A stretch of 60,588 nt of DNA from a virus (taxonomy: Duplodnaviria; Caudoviricetes): positions 1 to 60,588 of IMG/VR virus record IMGVR_UViG_3300032260_000003; one strand, given 5' to 3'. Within the stretch, counting starts at the first letter, position 1. Each line of letters opens with the position of its first letter. Below the pieces are notes generated by a model, which searched no databases, had not been told where the DNA came from, and saw nothing but the letters and a program-made list of their open reading frames with translations. The position numbers and the translations under genes are program-made. Of this stretch, positions 2,163-56,160 are shown piece by piece.

Positions 2163-2232
2163 GCGGGATTAGCTCAGTGTAGAGCGTCGATCGTAAGGTC
2201 GGAGGTCGGGGGTTCAATTCCTTCATCCTGCA
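2163..2232 (+). ncRNA. tRNA-like RNA with 6-nt anticodon loop (Thr-CGT-like remnant)
   Basis: Acceptor GCGGGAT/ATCCTGC; D stem GCTC/GAGC; T arm GGGGG-TTCAATT-CCTTC; anticodon stem TCGAT/GTCGG closes CGTAAG. Confidence 0.75.
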
Positions 2233-2235
2233 TAC

Positions 2236-2310
2236 GGGAGTGTAGCTCAATTGATAGAGCGTCGGGTGTAATCAGCTCGTTGGTTGGGGGTTTGAGTCCC
2301 CCTGCTCCCC
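2236..2310 (+). ncRNA. tRNA-like RNA with 9-nt irregular anticodon loop (Thr-TGT-like remnant)
   Basis: Acceptor GGGAGTG/TGCTCCC; D stem GCTC/GAGC; T arm GGGGG-TTTGAGT-CCCCC; CGGG/CTCG encloses TGTAATCAG. Confidence 0.75.
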
Positions 2311-2375
2311 CTGCCCTCACTTTTTTCGTTTTCGGGGTATGAAAGGGCGCGCACTGCGCGTACCTTGGAGGCACC

Positions 2376-3371
2376 ATGATGAATGCTATGATGCTTGCCT
2401 TTCTGGCGGCACCCGTCACCTCTTTCACCGTCTCCGCCGACAGCGCCGACCTCACATGTTTGTGCGGCGCCGTCGAGGAATCGTGCGACGCACTGCCAAT
2501 TCCCTGCGATCCGCTGCAACTGACCGCAGTGGGTGCGCAGAATCTCATTGCGTCCGCTACGTATCCGCCCCCGCGCGACGGTGGCGTCGCTGATTCGGGT
2601 CCGAGCGACAGCGGCCCGGCGGATTCAGGCCCACGCGACGGCGGCGCCGGCCTGAGCTTACTCGACTGTAACGCGCCAATGCAGACGGGTTATCACACGA
2701 TCCGCACCGCAAGTGGCCAATATCGGCGATTCTTCACACATGAACCCGTACTATACGGATTCTTCGGAGGCTCGCGGCCCGTCGTCATCCATTTTCACGG
2801 CGGCGGCGAACAGGCATTTCACATCGCCGGCTACACGTGGGGCATGGTTCAAGAAGAGGCGTTGATGATCGGCGTCGAATCCAACGCGCCCGCAGGACAG
2901 CAGCCGTGGACCAGCGACCCGGCCCAAAACCTCGACGTGTACGACGCAATTCGCTCGTGCCTGCCGCTCTTTGCCGCGCAGGCGGTGCCGCTGCGCGTGT
3001 TCCTGTCGGCGTTCAGCAACGGCGCGTACGGCGTGCCGGAGGGCATTCTTGAGGCGCGGAACAATTACGCTGGCGTCGTGTTGCACTCCGGCGGCTATTT
3101 CGGTGGCGGCTTCCTCCCCGGCGGCGGACCGATCATTGCGGTGCATGGTGGTCCCGGCGACGGCGCAGGCTTCAATCCGCAGATCGACTTCTCGGGGCAG
3201 GCGGCGAACATCGTTGCAGCGGCGCGCGCGGCCGGGAACGCAGCGGTACTGTGCGAACACGCATTCGGGCATCAGCTCGATCCGGCATTGGGCGCGGACA
3301 ACTCGATGTACCGCGCGTTCTTCGCGTCCGGCTCAACGACCGCATTCGCGTCCGCCGGCAACTGTCAATAG
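2376..3371 (+). CDS. Secreted alpha/beta-hydrolase (PHB depolymerase/esterase-like) with DSG-repeat linker
   Basis: GGAGG RBS; signal peptide; DGGVADSGPSDSGPADSGPRDGG linker; VVIHFHGGG, nucleophile elbow SAFSNGA, AVHGG, C-terminal HAFGH. Confidence 0.7.
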   Translation: MMNAMMLAFLAAPVTSFTVSADSADLTCLCGAVEESCDALPIPCDPLQLTAVGAQNLIASATYPPPRDGGVADSGPSDSGPADSGPRDGGAGLSLLDCNAPMQTGYHTIRTASGQYRRFFTHEPVLYGFFGGSRPVVIHFHGGGEQAFHIAGYTWGMVQEEALMIGVESNAPAGQQPWTSDPAQNLDVYDAIRSCLPLFAAQAVPLRVFLSAFSNGAYGVPEGILEARNNYAGVVLHSGGYFGGGFLPGGGPIIAVHGGPGDGAGFNPQIDFSGQAANIVAAARAAGNAAVLCEHAFGHQLDPALGADNSMYRAFFASGSTTAFASAGNCQ

Positions 3372-3413
3372 GGTCGGGTTGCGTTTCTTTGGTTTCTGAT
3401 TCAGATCTGTGAC

Positions 3414-4859
3414 GTGGTTCGTCCCGCGTCACCGTTCGAGACTCCCGTCGACTCACGCGCTGCTTTCACGACCAACACACCGGCCGCCCTTCAAGTCTTC
3501 GGCGGCGACACGGGATCGCGACGCGGCTCCTCGAATGTCCTTCGATCGTACGAGACGTCGCCGCGCATCCAGGCCATCTTCGATCTCATCTCGGAAACGC
3601 TCGCCGCGCTACCCCTGCGCGCGTATCGAGCGAAGACGGTCGGCGATAAACGCCGCATCTTTCGCGACATCCACGGCGCTCCGGCGTCAAACAACATGGG
3701 CGGTGAGACGCGCCGCTCGATGATGCAGCGGTTCGTGGACACCAAACACCTCGAAGAGGTCCCGTCGCCCGCGTTGAAATTGCTCTCGTCACCGATGAGC
3801 CCCGCGCGACCCGAAATGCTGTCGTCGTGGGAATGGCGCACGCTCATCAACGTCCAACTGGAACTCTGCGGCAACGCGTGGTTGCTCGCCCTCGATCGCG
3901 GCTCAATCGCATCCAAATTGACGCGCGCGCCGCTCGAACTCCTCCCCATCCCCGATCCGTGGGTGCGACAGAATCAGGCGGGAACCTTCGACATCTACGG
4001 CGCCGACGGCAACGTTCGCTGGACGCAAGTGCACCCTTCGCGCATGCATTGGGTCCGCCGGCCGCGCCCCTCGAATCCGTTCGGCCGCGGAATCGGTAAG
4101 GCGCAAACGCTCGCCGACGAAATCGATCTCGACGAAGGTTCGGCGCGGTTCATGAACTCATTGCTGCGAAACAGCGGCGTTCCCGCGCACCTGGTGCAGG
4201 TTGAGCACTCGACACCCGAGCAGCGCGAACAGCTTCGCATCGATCTCGACCAACGCATGCGCGGTGTTCAGAACGCCGGGCGTCTCGTCGTCACGTCGGG
4301 CAAGGTCGACATCAAAGCCGTCGGCGCGAGTCCGACCGACATCGGGATGGCCGAAAACCGCGCGTTCGCCGCCGATGTGATGCGCGAGTCCGTCGGCGTC
4401 CCGCCCGAACAGATGGGGCAGATCAAAAACTCGAACCGCGCCACGGTGCGCGAGTCGTACAAGATCTTCGCGCAAAACGTGCTTTTGCCGCGTTGTCGCC
4501 GCTGGGACGACTATTACACCGGCCGGGTCGCGCCGCTGTTCCCCGACGGTGATTTGATCATCATCGCGCACGACTCGCCGCTGCCGGCGGATCTTGAAGC
4601 TGAAGAAGTGGCACGCGGCATCGCACCGTGGGCCATGACGCGAAACCAGTGGCTCAAACAGCAGGGACAGGATCCGGTTGAAGGCCCCACCGGTGAACTG
4701 ATCATGGTGCCGCCGAATTCGCAATTCATCCCCGAGTCGCGCCTCATCGAACTCGCCCAAGCGACAATCGAGTCGGTGAAAAATCAGAACAAGGCCGCCG
4801 TCGCTCAAGCGTCGAATCCCGGCGCCAAACCAAAGCCGAAGCCGGCCGCAAAGAAGTGA
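3414..4859 (+). CDS. Phage portal protein (HK97 family)
   Basis: ISETLAALPL, LELCGNAW, NSGVP, GVQNAGR, VGVPPEQMG..SNRA motifs; sits before protease and capsid. Confidence 0.93.
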   Translation: MVRPASPFETPVDSRAAFTTNTPAALQVFGGDTGSRRGSSNVLRSYETSPRIQAIFDLISETLAALPLRAYRAKTVGDKRRIFRDIHGAPASNNMGGETRRSMMQRFVDTKHLEEVPSPALKLLSSPMSPARPEMLSSWEWRTLINVQLELCGNAWLLALDRGSIASKLTRAPLELLPIPDPWVRQNQAGTFDIYGADGNVRWTQVHPSRMHWVRRPRPSNPFGRGIGKAQTLADEIDLDEGSARFMNSLLRNSGVPAHLVQVEHSTPEQREQLRIDLDQRMRGVQNAGRLVVTSGKVDIKAVGASPTDIGMAENRAFAADVMRESVGVPPEQMGQIKNSNRATVRESYKIFAQNVLLPRCRRWDDYYTGRVAPLFPDGDLIIIAHDSPLPADLEAEEVARGIAPWAMTRNQWLKQQGQDPVEGPTGELIMVPPNSQFIPESRLIELAQATIESVKNQNKAAVAQASNPGAKPKPKPAAKK

Positions 4860-4862
4860 GTC

Positions 4863-5081
4863 ATGCTGACGAACGATGAACGAGATTTCTGCGCGAAACT
4901 TCTTCGGCAAATGAACGAACACGATCTCACCGTGGGCCGCGCGGCCGACTACCTGCGCGTCGACGATGCAACGCTGCAACGGTGGATTCTCGGCGTCACG
5001 GTGCCGCGCAAAATCGATCGCGATTCCGCAATCATGGCCATCATCGCGTATCCCGCCGTCCGCTTGAACGAAGCGACGTAG
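4863..5081 (+). CDS. XRE-type HTH DNA-binding protein
   Basis: LTVGRAADYLRVDDATLQRWILGVTVP helix-turn-helix pattern. Confidence 0.7.
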   Translation: MLTNDERDFCAKLLRQMNEHDLTVGRAADYLRVDDATLQRWILGVTVPRKIDRDSAIMAIIAYPAVRLNEAT

Positions 5082-55398: not shown

Positions 55399-55403
55399 CC
55401 AAG

Positions 55404-55748
55404 ATGACGAAGACGAAGACGACGAACGATGCAGTGCCGAAAGCTCCGCGGCCCGGCTGCCACATCACGCCCGCGCACGCCAAGGCGATGAAGCGGCACA
55501 TTCGAACGACACGAAACCGAACGACCATCGCCGCCGTTGCGCGCGCCGCGAACATTTCGTGGGCTGCCGCGAACCGCTTCATCGCGAACAACAAAATCGA
55601 TCTCGAAGCGCCGCGCAATCGCGAGATGGAGAAGCGGAACGCCACCATCTTCAAGTTGTGCAAGAAACAGCCGCGAGCCGAAGTCGCCGCGACGTACGGA
55701 ATCACGGAGGCGCGCGTCGGAATGATCGTGCGGTCAATGTCGAGCTAA
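55404..55748 (+). CDS. HTH regulator (Mor-like C-terminus)
   Basis: RNATIF..AEVAATYGITEARVGMIV. Confidence 0.65.
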   Translation: MTKTKTTNDAVPKAPRPGCHITPAHAKAMKRHIRTTRNRTTIAAVARAANISWAAANRFIANNKIDLEAPRNREMEKRNATIFKLCKKQPRAEVAATYGITEARVGMIVRSMSS

Positions 55749-55755
55749 TCGATAG

Positions 55756-55891
55756 TGCTGGGTAGCTTAATCGGTAAAGCGCCACGCCCAATGGCATATG
55801 CGTCAGAGAGTCCAGGGCGTACGACAGGACTCTCGTACGATGCTTTTGTCGGGTGTGGAAGTTGGTAGGTTCGAGCCCCGCCCCCATGCGT
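55756..55891 (+). ncRNA. tRNA-like RNA whose anticodon loop is replaced by a 61-nt structured insert
   Basis: TA-GCTT-AATCGGTA-AAGC D arm; CCACGCCC/GGGTGTGG stem; GGTAGG-TTCGAGC-CCCGCC T arm; TGCTGGG/CCCATGCG acceptor with a bulge. Confidence 0.72.
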
Positions 55892-55895
55892 TCAT

Positions 55896-56080
55896 GTGCT
55901 GCGGGACGTGACGGAGAGTCGTAAAAGAGGCATTGCCGCATTTGGATCCGTATTGATGCGGCGGCGGGCACGGCGTTTTGAGGGTACTTAGCCACCTGAA
56001 TATGCCCAAATCGTGCATAGCGTTTAGCGGTTTCGACTGCGACAGCGTGAGTGGTGGGACAGCCGGGAGAGACCGGCACT
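55896..56080 (+). ncRNA. Candidate structured ncRNA between two tRNA-like elements
   Basis: Hairpins 55933-55964, 56027-56040 (UUCG loop) and 56062-56077; no credible ORF. Confidence 0.4.
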
Positions 56081-56081
56081 T

Positions 56082-56160
56082 GGTAGTGTGCTGAAGTCTG
56101 GTCAAACAGCGGGCGTCTATTCCAACGCTCGATACGTCGGTTCAAATCCGGCCGCTACCT
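56082..56160 (+). ncRNA. tRNA-like RNA with 8-nt anticodon loop
   Basis: GGTAGTG/CGCTACC; GCTG/CAGC D stem; GGGCGT-CTATTCCA-ACGCTC; GTCGG-TTCAAAT-CCGGC; U73. Confidence 0.78.

What the first reader, a model, noticed from the sequence alone, without database searches (positions are those of the whole stretch)
2163..56160. Genome-wide set of tRNA mimics with intact acceptor/elbow and rebuilt anticodon arms
Seen: eight tRNA-shaped elements at five loci. Six (2163, 2236, 42523, 42624, 55756, 56082) keep a paired T arm and an acceptor stem (bulged or mismatched in two), but none has a normal 5-bp stem with 7-nt loop; the loops are 6, 9, 24, 5/7, 61 and 8 nt. Several rebuilt arms are well paired, which random decay would not readily produce. 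They occur as three pairs, each directly after a gene (Pth2, GroES, Mor-like HTH). Inference: these are non-decoding RNAs. They could be decoys for host anticodon nucleases or tRNA sensors (PrrC/RloC, VapC, PARIS, RelA, T-box), RNase P/Z punctuation signals, or aminoacyl carriers. This is the best candidate for an undescribed system in the window.
Basis: partly seen in the sequence, partly recalled or inferred. Interest (0 to 1): 0.9.

Follow-up and report, generated by a model that had tools for sequence, protein, structure and literature searches.

The report
Phage tRNA mimics linked to Pth2
This phage carries tRNA-shaped RNA genes with rebuilt anticodon arms, and the pair beside a peptidyl-tRNA-hydrolase-like gene belongs to a widespread phage gene module that I did not find described and that probably protects or manipulates the cell's tRNA machinery.

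Summary
Four of the six elements pass Rfam's tRNA threshold, a fifth (55757-55891) is found by my own model, and the sixth (42625-42682) by a strict acceptor plus T-arm scan (4 hits against 0.475 expected). None has a 5-bp stem with a 7-nt loop.

The pair after Pth2 is not decay. The Pth2-like protein defines a family. In 69 of 85 non-redundant loci, ARAGORN finds same-strand tRNA-like genes just downstream, against 8 of 76 upstream. Twelve of the other 16 loci have one by covariance model. Of 125 distinct adjacent elements, only 4 have a fully canonical anticodon arm. The rest fall into recurring designs:
- A: tetraloop-capped arm (window 2163).
- B: extended arm.
- C: 5-bp stem with a 9-nt loop (window 2236).

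Classes A and C show strong compensatory covariation. The reverse test also holds: 37 of about 45 tRNA-shaped class-C matches lie beside a Pth2-like gene. Myxococcus phage Mx1 carries an unannotated class-C copy.

The four elements after GroES and the HTH gene have no relatives, so they stay unresolved. Function is inferred, and I found no description in print.

The parts
1761..2150 (+). Pth2-like gene (129 aa), the protein partner of the module
   Evidence: Pfam PTH2 32.5 bits against a cut-off of 23. phrog_1866. NCBIfam Pth2 equivalogs score far below cut-off (22.5 against 126). The family profile matches solved Pth2 1rzw_A at E = 1.3e-6 over its full length. The family HMM scores 157.8 bits here, the only hit in the window.
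2163..2232 (+). e1: class-A tRNA-like RNA. Cloverleaf with a short D loop; the anticodon arm is a 6-bp stem capped by a GUAA tetraloop. G3.U70 and A73 are present; no CCA is encoded.
   Evidence: Rfam 47.6 bits. ARAGORN two-letter anticodon. The MFE fold is a cloverleaf, z = -3.02. It aligns with 18 first-position elements of other modules; 96.0% of cells are paired and 16 of 20 pairs show compensatory change.
2236..2311 (+). e2: class-C tRNA-like RNA. Canonical acceptor, D and T arms; 5-bp anticodon stem (first pair U.U) with the 9-nt loop U-GUAAUCA-G.
   Evidence: Rfam 43.3 bits. R1 66.9 bits, the top hit in the window. It is a member of alignment A4, where 98.5% of cells are paired and 20 of 21 pairs covary.
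29488..29562 (+). Canonical tRNA-Met (CAU) with a C1xA72 mismatch, listed for contrast. It has a 7-nt loop with G at position 37.
   Evidence: Rfam 56.6 bits; ARAGORN drawing.
42233..42517 (+). GroES gene, directly upstream of e3 and e4 (context)
   Evidence: Pfam Cpn10 78.8 bits; phrog_3188.
42523..42618 (+). e3: tRNA-derived element. D and T arms are intact. The acceptor has two U.U mismatches, or alternatively a 5-nt bulge. The anticodon arm carries a 23-nt insert.
   Evidence: Rfam 43.6 bits at 42529-42617; R1 39.6 bits. The arm alone is not unusually stable (z = -1.27). The insert is not repeated elsewhere in the window. No relatives were found.
42624..42685 (+). e4: three-armed mini tRNA-like element. 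It has an 8-bp acceptor, a perfect T arm, and one hairpin (7-8 bp with a triloop, or 5 bp with a 7-nt loop). There is no D arm.
   Evidence: Strict scan hit 42625-42682. MFE z = -2.64; hairpin z = -3.02. Not found by Rfam, ARAGORN or R1.
55404..55748 (+). Small HTH protein gene upstream of e5 and e6 (context); the 'Mor-like' label is weak
   Evidence: phrog_836 E = 1e-4. Pfam HTH_Tnp_ISL3 28.3 bits against 27.4. No relatives in viral contigs.
55756..55891 (+). e5: tRNA-derived element with a 60-nt insert that forms a rod of about 24 bp in the anticodon arm. The acceptor has an internal loop and the T stem has an A.C mismatch.
   Evidence: R1 29.6 bits, E = 1.4e-6. Arm MFE -38.2 against -23.4 kcal/mol, z = -5.19. 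Not found by Rfam.
56082..56160 (+). e6: tRNA-like element whose anticodon arm is a 5-bp stem with a 10-nt loop (or 6 bp with the 8-nt loop CUAUUCCA). The D stem has 3 bp.
   Evidence: Rfam 33.1 bits. ARAGORN four-letter anticodon. R1 27.7 bits. MFE z = -2.40.
32965..33045 (-). ARAGORN 'tRNA-Tyr'; probably a false or very degenerate call, not part of the set
   Evidence: No Rfam hit. R1 matches only a 15-nt T-arm piece at 9.9 bits. The MFE fold is not a cloverleaf, z = -0.13.

Best explanation
SHOWN. Elements 2163-2232 and 2236-2311, together with the gene before them, are one copy of a conserved phage module. The module is a compact Pth2-like protein followed on the same strand by one to five tRNA-shaped RNA genes.

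These RNAs keep the acceptor stem, the T arm and usually the D arm. Their anticodon arm has been rebuilt in a few recurring ways:
- capped by a stable tetraloop (class A; window e1);
- lengthened into a capped hairpin or long rod (class B and longer forms);
- widened to a 5-bp stem with a 9-nt loop of consensus N-[G/C/U]-U-A-A-U-[G/C]-A-N (class C; window e2).

All stems covary, so these RNAs are under selection for the tRNA shape and are not pseudogenes.

INFERRED. They are co-transcribed with the upstream gene, cut out by the cell's tRNA-processing enzymes, and given or already carry CCA. They accumulate as stable tRNA-shaped RNAs that cannot decode normally. Together with the hydrolase they protect phage translation when the host attacks its own tRNA pool:
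- the RNAs act as decoys or sponges for proteins that recognise the tRNA body or 3' end;
- the Pth2-like enzyme frees tRNAs trapped as peptidyl- or N-acyl-aminoacyl-tRNA.

My odds are about 0.9 that e1 and e2 are selected partners of Pth2-like, and about 0.35 for the counter-defence or decoy mechanism specifically.

The four elements after GroES and the HTH gene are tRNA-derived. They resemble the extended-arm and widened-loop designs, but whether they function is open (about even odds).
For: Linkage
- 69 of 85 non-redundant Pth2-like loci with at least 300 nt downstream have a same-strand ARAGORN tRNA starting -20 to +500 nt after the gene. The upstream control is 8 of 76, and the opposite strand gives 1.
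- R1 finds a same-strand tRNA-like element in 12 of the 16 remaining loci, 10 of them within about 200 nt.
- No other protein family is shared by more than 7 loci.
- Only Pth2 is shared between the window and the three nearest loci.

Reverse test
- 63 viral stretches match a class-C pattern, and 37 of them hold a Pth2-like HMM hit.
- In the tblastn pass, 33 of 35 protein hits were on the same strand and next to the element.
- By eye, 18 of the other 26 stretches are not tRNA-shaped.

Design
- Of 125 distinct adjacent elements, 74 are class C, 20 class A, 17 class B, and only 4 have a 5-bp stem with a 7-nt loop, U33 and R37.
- Among 24 tRNAs elsewhere in related records, 15 are canonical.

Selection
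- Class C alignment A4: 98.5% of cells paired against 69.2% shuffled; 387 double-change cells against 78.5; 20 of 21 pairs covary; 0 of 500 shuffles reach this.
- Class A alignment A5: 96.0% against 74.2%; 16 of 20 pairs covary.
- The loop is 9 nt in 69 of 71 class-C sequences, and 'position 37' is never A.

Other
- The order Pth2-like, then A, then B, then C recurs.
- Long structured inserts on tRNA bodies recur in other modules.
- The family profile matches solved Pth2 structures.
Against: - There are no expression, processing or charging data; no RNA run is listed.
- Function is inferred from gene linkage and shape alone.
- Class C keeps loop positions that look like U33 and A38. Loop positions 1 and 9 behave like a sixth pair (30 standard and 30 A.C or C.A of 69). 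A decoding tRNA with a longer stem is therefore not excluded.
- A few first-position elements have canonical Arg UCU or CCU loops, so part of the module can be ordinary tRNA.
- The lysine of the RGK stretch in solved Pth2 is replaced in the phage family, so catalysis is unproven.
- A4 was chosen by ARAGORN triplet name and arm length. The '9 nt in 69 of 71' figure is therefore partly by selection.
- e3 to e6 have no homologues and carry defects outside the anticodon arm.
- 0 of 21 GroES loci in other phages have a tRNA call nearby.
Confidence: 0.6

Rival explanations
1. Class C elements (e2 and perhaps e6) are real decoding tRNAs. Their anticodon stem is one layer longer and they have an unusual position 37. 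This makes them poor substrates for host anticodon nucleases, so they replace cleaved host tRNAs. Because they decode badly and drop off, the phage needs its own peptidyl-tRNA hydrolase.
For: - The inner seven loop letters resemble an anticodon loop: U at loop position 3 in 55 of 69 and A at position 8 in 64 of 69.
- Loop positions 1 and 9 behave as an extra pair.
- G18G19 and the T loop are kept.
- Phage tRNAs that rescue infection from tRNA-cleaving defences are known (PMC10264068, PMC11464382, PMC11555353; search listing and abstract starts only).
- Some first-position elements carry canonical Arg loops.
Against: - 'Position 37' is G (50) or C (17) and never A, although most triplets end in U or A.
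- 55 of 69 triplets start with A. That this is rare in bacterial tRNAs is recalled.
- 'Leu' and 'Tyr' triplets sit on short class I bodies, and 'His' triplets lack C73. In one search the discriminator is C in 1 of 71. The identity rules themselves are recalled.
- The discriminator does not follow the triplet.
- Classes A and B have no anticodon at all yet share the module.
Confidence: 0.25
2. The elements are decaying tRNA pseudogenes, left over from a former phage tRNA cluster.
For: - For e3 to e6 only: acceptor mismatches in e3 and e5, a T-stem mismatch in e5, a missing D arm in e4, and a weak D stem in e6.
- e4 and e5 have no Rfam hit.
- No relatives are available to show conservation.
Against: - For e1 and e2 this is excluded by recurrence and covariation over loci whose Pth2-like proteins are only 40-56% identical.
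- For e5 the insert is far better paired than chance (z = -5.19).
- e4 has a perfect 8-bp acceptor and a perfect T arm.
- Similar elaborate inserts occur in Pth2-like modules elsewhere.
Confidence: 0.05
3. The elements are processing and stability signals. RNase P and RNase Z cut the polycistronic transcript at them, or the folded tRNA shape protects the 3' end of the upstream mRNA. The RNAs have no function of their own.
For: - All six lie directly after a gene and on its strand.
- No promoter-like or terminator-like site above chance separates them from the upstream gene.
- e5 and e6 sit where the + strand genes meet the - strand tail genes.
Against: - A punctuation signal needs neither three distinct, conserved anticodon-arm designs nor a conserved 9-nt loop sequence.
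- Nor would it be tied to a single protein family in more than 80 loci while absent beside GroES in 21 other phages.
Confidence: 0.1
4. The Pth2-like protein and the tRNA-like RNAs form one ribonucleoprotein or a toxin-antitoxin-like pair. Either the RNAs are the enzyme's dedicated substrates or inhibitors, or the complex attacks host translation.
For: - The linkage is obligate in both directions.
- The protein family is divergent and compact, with its own invariant residues.
- The module moves as a unit between unrelated genome contexts.
Against: Nothing shows binding. The number and class of RNAs per module varies from 1 to 5, which is unusual for a fixed complex.
Confidence: 0.15

Closest known systems
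Phage-encoded tRNAs, including those that rescue infection from tRNA-cleaving defences or carry anticodon-loop changes
   Same: tRNA-shaped genes in a phage, clustered head to tail and probably processed by host enzymes. The proposed role is in the conflict over the tRNA pool (PMC10264068, PMC11464382, PMC11555353; search listing and abstract starts only).
   Different: Those are decoding tRNAs with 7-nt loops. Here only 4 of 125 module elements are fully canonical, and many have no anticodon at all. They are also tied to one protein gene.
Pth2 (archaeal/eukaryotic-type peptidyl-tRNA hydrolase) in phages
   Same: The Pfam PTH2 hit is above cut-off and the family profile matches solved Pth2 structures. 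Iyer et al. 2021 (PMC7824862; passages read) report PTH2 in jumbo phages and propose ribosome rescue after tRNA cleavage.
   Different: This family is shorter (about 105-130 aa), scores far below the NCBIfam equivalog cut-offs, and lacks the lysine of the RGK stretch. The passages I read do not mention partner tRNA-like genes. Their supplements were not seen.
Bacterial Y RNAs (YrlA type) with Ro60/TROVE
   Same: A tRNA-like module is joined to a long helix. Phage Mx1 has a TROVE gene about 0.8 kb upstream of its Pth2-like module. Iyer et al. mention TROVE with a tRNA-like partner in jumbo phages.
   Different: No Y RNA family reached Rfam's cut-off in the window, and no TROVE gene was seen among the window proteins searched. 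In YrlA the ends lie in the long helix rather than in the acceptor (recalled).
tmRNA
   Same: A tRNA-like acceptor and T arm without an anticodon, working with a protein in ribosome rescue. e1 has G3.U70.
   Different: ARAGORN finds no tmRNA, and there is no tag reading frame. G3.U70 occurs in only 2 of 19 class A sequences.
Frameshift-suppressor tRNAs with expanded anticodon loops
   Same: Loops of 8-9 nt on a normal tRNA body (e2, e6). Such tRNAs are known, for example SufB2 (10.1101/2020.12.31.424971; listing only).
   Different: Those are single mutants of cognate tRNAs. Class C is a large family with a conserved loop sequence, and its bodies do not match the identity implied by the triplet.
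Engineered 'tRNA scaffolds' for RNA expression, and the small stable RNAs of the phage T4 tRNA cluster (both recalled, from no call)
   Same: A tRNA body is used to carry, process and stabilise a non-tRNA hairpin placed in the anticodon arm, as in e3, e5, class B and the long-insert forms.
   Different: The first is a laboratory design, and the T4 RNAs have no assigned partner protein. I tested no homology to either.

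Membership tests
tRNA (Rfam RF00005) | Score at or above the gathering cut-off of 29 bits | tested here: met
   e1 47.6, e3 43.6, e2 43.3, e6 33.1 bits. NOT met for e4 and e5, even at E<=10.
tRNA (functional decoder) | 5-bp anticodon stem closing a 7-nt loop with U33 and a purine at 37 | tested here: not met
   None of the six has it. Only the tRNA-Met at 29488 has a 7-nt loop.
tRNA (functional decoder) | Aminoacylation and use on the ribosome | not testable with these tools
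   No RNA run is listed for this phage.
Pth2 (Pfam PF01981) | Pfam gathering score | tested here: met
   32.5 bits against 23, covering profile positions 3-115 of 115.
Pth2 (NCBIfam equivalogs NF003314, TIGR00283) | Equivalog cut-off | tested here: not met
   22.5 against 126 bits and 18.6 against 82 bits. This is a divergent branch, not an orthologue.
Pth2 | Sequence-profile match to solved Pth2 structures | tested here: met
   1rzw_A E = 1.3e-6 over the full length; six further Pth2 chains at E<=0.03. No 3-D model was made.
Pth2 | Catalytic residues and esterase activity | tested here: inconclusive
   The Asp aligned with the DAG stretch of 1rzw is invariant (D92). The Lys of the RGK stretch is replaced. 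Which residues are catalytic is recalled, not checked.
Pth2-like-linked tRNA-like RNA, class C (defined here) | Cloverleaf with a 5-bp anticodon stem and a 9-nt loop of the consensus, beside a Pth2-like gene | tested here: met
   e2 scores 66.9 bits with R1, has the loop U-GUAAUCA-G, and lies 86 nt after the Pth2-like stop. e6 scores 27.7 bits, has one extra loop letter and no adjacent Pth2-like gene: not met.
Pth2-like-linked tRNA-like RNA, class A (defined here) | First position after Pth2-like, short D loop, anticodon arm closed by a tetraloop | tested here: met
   e1 starts 13 nt after the stop, has a 6-nt D loop and a GUAA cap, and aligns with 18 others.
tmRNA | tRNA-like domain plus a tag reading frame | tested here: not met
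   ARAGORN reports no tmRNA. Rfam tmRNA_permuted scores 12.7 against 47 bits.
tRNA with a group I intron | Intron family match inside the anticodon loop | tested here: not met
   No intron family reached Rfam's cut-off in the window. The inserts are only 23 and 60 nt.
Y RNA / YrlA with Ro60 | Rfam family match and a TROVE protein gene | tested here: not met
   No match at the gathering score. No TROVE gene among the 27 different window proteins searched. The contig is only 58% complete.

The most novel reading that the evidence does not exclude
Phages use the tRNA body as a natural scaffold to make a family of non-decoding RNAs: capped, extended or loop-widened anticodon arms, some with 60-100 nt of structured cargo. 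These RNAs act together with a dedicated, divergent Pth2-like hydrolase as a previously unrecognised RNA-protein system. The system would disarm tRNA-directed immunity or reprogramme host translation. All six window elements, including those away from the Pth2-like gene, would be working parts of it.
Probability: 0.35. Interest if true: 0.9.

Novelty: new variant of a known kind. Interest (0 to 1): 0.8.

Why it matters
Phage tRNAs have recently been recognised as weapons against tRNA-cleaving immunity, but only as working tRNAs. Here a large, conserved set of tRNA-shaped RNAs has had its decoding end deliberately closed, lengthened or widened. The set is locked to one small enzyme family that acts on the tRNA 3' end.

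If they are decoys or scaffolds, this is a new class of viral non-coding RNA and a new counter-defence logic. It would also be a natural counterpart of the engineered 'tRNA scaffold'.

The finding explains many 'undetermined' or odd-anticodon tRNA calls in phage annotation. It also shows that such calls are missed: the Mx1 record lacks its class-C gene.

Because Mx1 and Myxococcus xanthus can be grown in the laboratory, the question can be tested at once.

Tried and rejected
- **Close relatives.** Megablast of window 1-12000 against named phages found no match. The portal protein and the HTH protein gave no relatives in viral contigs.
- **GroES relatives.** 21 loci at 54% identity or less were found, with 0 ARAGORN tRNAs within 2.5 kb. 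Pair 2 therefore has no comparative data.
- **Sequencing runs.** No RNA holder is listed; there are two DNA runs, one probably the source. Laying both on 42000-56400 showed that the second run holds only scraps, none over e3 to e6. This gives no information on variation there.
- **Promoter and terminator scans** at all three loci were at or below chance.
- **e3 insert as a repeated mobile hairpin.** It occurs only once in the window.
- **Spacer between e5 and e6** is not unusually structured (z = -0.37).
- **Neighbouring and large window proteins** (27 different) include no tRNA-processing, ligase, synthetase or TROVE genes.
- **attP remnant.** Rejected because both acceptor strands and the D arm are present.
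- **Archaeal bulge-helix-bulge intron in e3.** By eye the two 3-nt loops face each other rather than being offset. I did not test this formally.
- **Alanine identity of e1 (G3.U70).** Seen in only 2 of 19 class A sequences, so probably incidental.
- **Literature.** Nine full-text searches found no description of a Pth2-linked set of non-canonical tRNA-like genes. Supplementary files were not consulted. The supplements of PMC7824862 (phage PTH2 contexts) could bear on novelty.
- **Pth2 catalytic residues** could not be confirmed from the passages read.
- **Not done:** no 3-D model, complex prediction, Atlas search or large protein search.

Full report
**What the window is.** It is an IMG/VR virus record of 60,588 bp. 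It is linear, estimated 58% complete, and 58.8% G+C. It encodes a portal, an HK97-type capsid, a family A DNA polymerase fused to a UDG-like domain, a D5-like primase-helicase, GroES and a Pth2-like protein. No named phage is close at the DNA level.

**The observation.**
- ARAGORN calls 2163-2232 with a two-letter anticodon, 2236-2311, 56082-56160 with a four-letter anticodon, a tRNA-Met at 29488, and a weak tRNA-Tyr on the minus strand.
- Rfam's tRNA model passes 2163, 2236, 42529-42617 and 56082. It does not see 42624 or 55756, even at E<=10.
- A covariance model I built later finds 55757-55891 as a tRNA with a 60-nt insert (29.6 bits).
- A strict scan for a perfect T arm plus a perfect 7-bp acceptor finds 42625-42682. 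It gives 4 hits in the window against 0.475 expected.
- All six fold as cloverleaf-like shapes.
e3 and e5 have imperfect acceptors, e5 has a T-stem mismatch, e4 has no D arm and e6 has a 3-bp D stem.
- The minus-strand tRNA-Tyr is probably spurious.

**The key result: Pth2 is a partner, not just a neighbour.** A first scan with the Pth2 protein found three distant phage loci. Only Pth2 was shared with the window. One of these loci had two tRNAs directly after the gene, both with 9-nt loops.

I then aligned the family (A2, A3) and scanned three collections:
- viral contigs: 10 loci;
- metagenome contigs: 145 relatives, 80 kept;
- genome contigs: 19 loci, all MAGs, eight of them Myxococcota.

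The linkage is strong:
- Of 85 non-redundant loci with at least 300 nt downstream, 69 have a same-strand ARAGORN tRNA starting -20 to +500 nt after the gene.
- The upstream control is 8 of 76. One locus has an opposite-strand tRNA.
- In 12 of the 16 loci without such a call, my model finds a same-strand tRNA-like element. Ten are within about 200 nt, mostly just upstream of the gene in the Myxococcota group.
- Four loci have none.
- No other protein family is shared by more than 7 loci, so the conserved unit is the protein plus the RNAs.

**The RNAs are systematically non-canonical.** There are 125 distinct adjacent elements:
- 74 have a 5-bp anticodon stem with a 9-nt loop (class C);
- 20 have a short closed arm (class A);
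- 17 have a single extended hairpin (class B);
- 6 have a canonical length but lack U33 or have a pyrimidine at 37;
- 4 are fully canonical;
- 1 is class II-like, 1 has an 8-nt loop, and 2 are otherwise odd.

In a control set of 24 tRNAs from other parts of related phage records, 15 are canonical. Two of the four '9-nt loop' cases in that control set later proved to sit beside a divergent Pth2-like gene.

The caps of class A and B arms are enriched in the very stable tetraloop families: GNRA 8, CUUG 4 and UNCG 3 of 37.

A custom scan found 28 further candidate hits that ARAGORN missed; several of them overlap one another or are not tRNA-shaped. Some are 63-64-nt forms with a 3-4-bp stem and a GNRA cap. 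Others are 138-169-nt forms with long structured inserts in the D loop or the anticodon arm. The order Pth2-like, A, B, C recurs.

**Selection.**
- Class C (71 sequences): the standard cloverleaf has 98.5% of cells paired against 69.2% in shuffles. There are 387 double-change cells against 78.5, and 20 of 21 pairs covary. All slid registers score far lower.
- Class A (19 sequences): 96.0% against 74.2%, and 16 of 20 pairs covary.
- The Pth2-like proteins of these loci are only 40-56% identical to the window's. The RNAs have therefore kept their odd shape over long divergence, which excludes decay for these classes.
- Caveat: the class C set was picked by ARAGORN triplet name and arm length. 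The figure '9 nt in 69 of 71' is therefore partly by selection. The covariation is not.

**Reverse test.** A degenerate class-C pattern found 63 stretches in viral contigs.
- 37 of them hold a Pth2-like HMM hit.
- In the tblastn pass, 33 of 35 protein hits were on the same strand and next to the element.
- By eye, 18 of the other 26 are coding sequence without a T arm.
- About 8 are tRNA-shaped without a detected partner, one of them too close to the stretch end to judge.

**Placing the window's elements.**
- e1 is class A. It is in first position, 13 nt after the stop. It has a 6-nt D loop without GG and a 6-bp stem with a GUAA cap.
- e2 is class C. It scores 66.9 bits with R1, against 41.3 for the phage's own tRNA-Met.
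- e6 resembles class C with one extra loop letter, but scores only 27.7 bits and has no Pth2-like neighbour.
- e3 (23-nt insert) and e5 (60-nt rod, z = -5.19) resemble the extended-arm and long-insert designs seen elsewhere. e4 is a three-armed mini form.
- For these four there are no homologues, so function and decay cannot be separated. The window has only one Pth2-like gene.

**The protein.** It passes Pfam PTH2, and its family profile matches solved Pth2 structures end to end. It is far below the NCBIfam equivalog cut-offs and shorter than those structures. It lacks the lysine of their RGK stretch, while an Asp and a His are invariant. I call it Pth2-like, with activity unproven.

**A culturable example.** Myxococcus phage Mx1 is the only hit among 50,697 named phage records. 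It has an annotated peptidyl-tRNA hydrolase with a tRNA-Gly just upstream and a TROVE-domain gene further upstream. An unannotated class-C gene with the consensus loop lies 436 nt downstream.

**Mechanism.**
- Shown: gene linkage, recurrent designs and covariation.
- Inferred: co-transcription (no promoter or terminator above chance); excision by tRNA-processing enzymes; CCA encoded in 10 of 19 class A and 11 of 71 class C sequences, otherwise added; and accumulation as non-decoding tRNA-shaped RNAs.
- My preferred reading is counter-defence. The RNAs would soak up host proteins that recognise the tRNA body or 3' end. The hydrolase would release tRNAs trapped as peptidyl- or N-acyl-aminoacyl-tRNA.
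- This fits published ideas that phage PTH2 serves ribosome rescue after tRNA attack (PMC7824862; passages).
- It also fits known defences that cut tRNA tails or bodies (PMC12851939, PMC13056530; listings) and tRNA-acetylating toxins countered by Pth (PMC9241777; listing).
- It remains a guess, at about 0.35.
- The main rival is that class C decodes with a lengthened stem (0.25).

**Novelty.** Nine full-text searches found no description of this module. Supplements were not seen. I rate it a new variant of a known kind (phage tRNA-like genes). There is a real chance that it is a new RNA-protein system.

Noticed in passing
window 29488-29562: The one clearly canonical tRNA (Met, CAU) has the C1xA72 mismatch typical of bacterial initiators (rule recalled). 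It has G rather than A at position 37, the same unusual position-37 letter that dominates the class C loops.
   Followed up: partly
L164 (Myxococcus phage Mx1, OR576727.2) 117-1766 and 3260-3334: A TROVE/Ro60-domain protein gene lies about 0.8 kb upstream of the Pth2-like gene. A class-C tRNA-like gene downstream is missing from the GenBank annotation.
   Followed up: partly
L007/L060 1902-1977 (105-kb phage with terminal repeats): The second element after the Pth2-like gene has UUA at the centre of its 9-nt loop, so ARAGORN calls it tRNA-Stop. The same phage has about 18 mostly canonical tRNAs in a separate cluster 55 kb away.
   Followed up: no
L006 2381-2899: In this low-GC phage the Pth2-like frame has no ATG, GTG or TTG start after the preceding stops. 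It runs on through the first tRNA-like element; two odd tRNA-like elements ending in CCA follow.
   Followed up: no
L055 1861-2489; L096 1369-1537: Up to five tRNA-like elements follow one Pth2-like gene. They include 138-169-nt forms with long, well-paired inserts in the D loop or in both the D loop and the anticodon arm.
   Followed up: partly
window 44604-48632: One 1342-aa reading frame joins a UDG-superfamily domain to a family A DNA polymerase.
   Followed up: no
window 50200-50740: The probable source run holds minor-variant contigs with dense substitutions in this stretch of the 566-aa ORF of unknown function (49710-51410). This suggests strain-level variation.
   Followed up: no
window 42000-42140: Many unrelated contigs lay on the acidic, repetitive 3' end of ORF 41275-42144, with many joints. 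This is a low-complexity stretch, not evidence of rearrangement.
   Followed up: no
window 55818-55849: Inside the e5 insert an alternative 7-bp hairpin followed by a T-rich run matches the terminator pattern. The count for the region is at chance level.
   Followed up: partly
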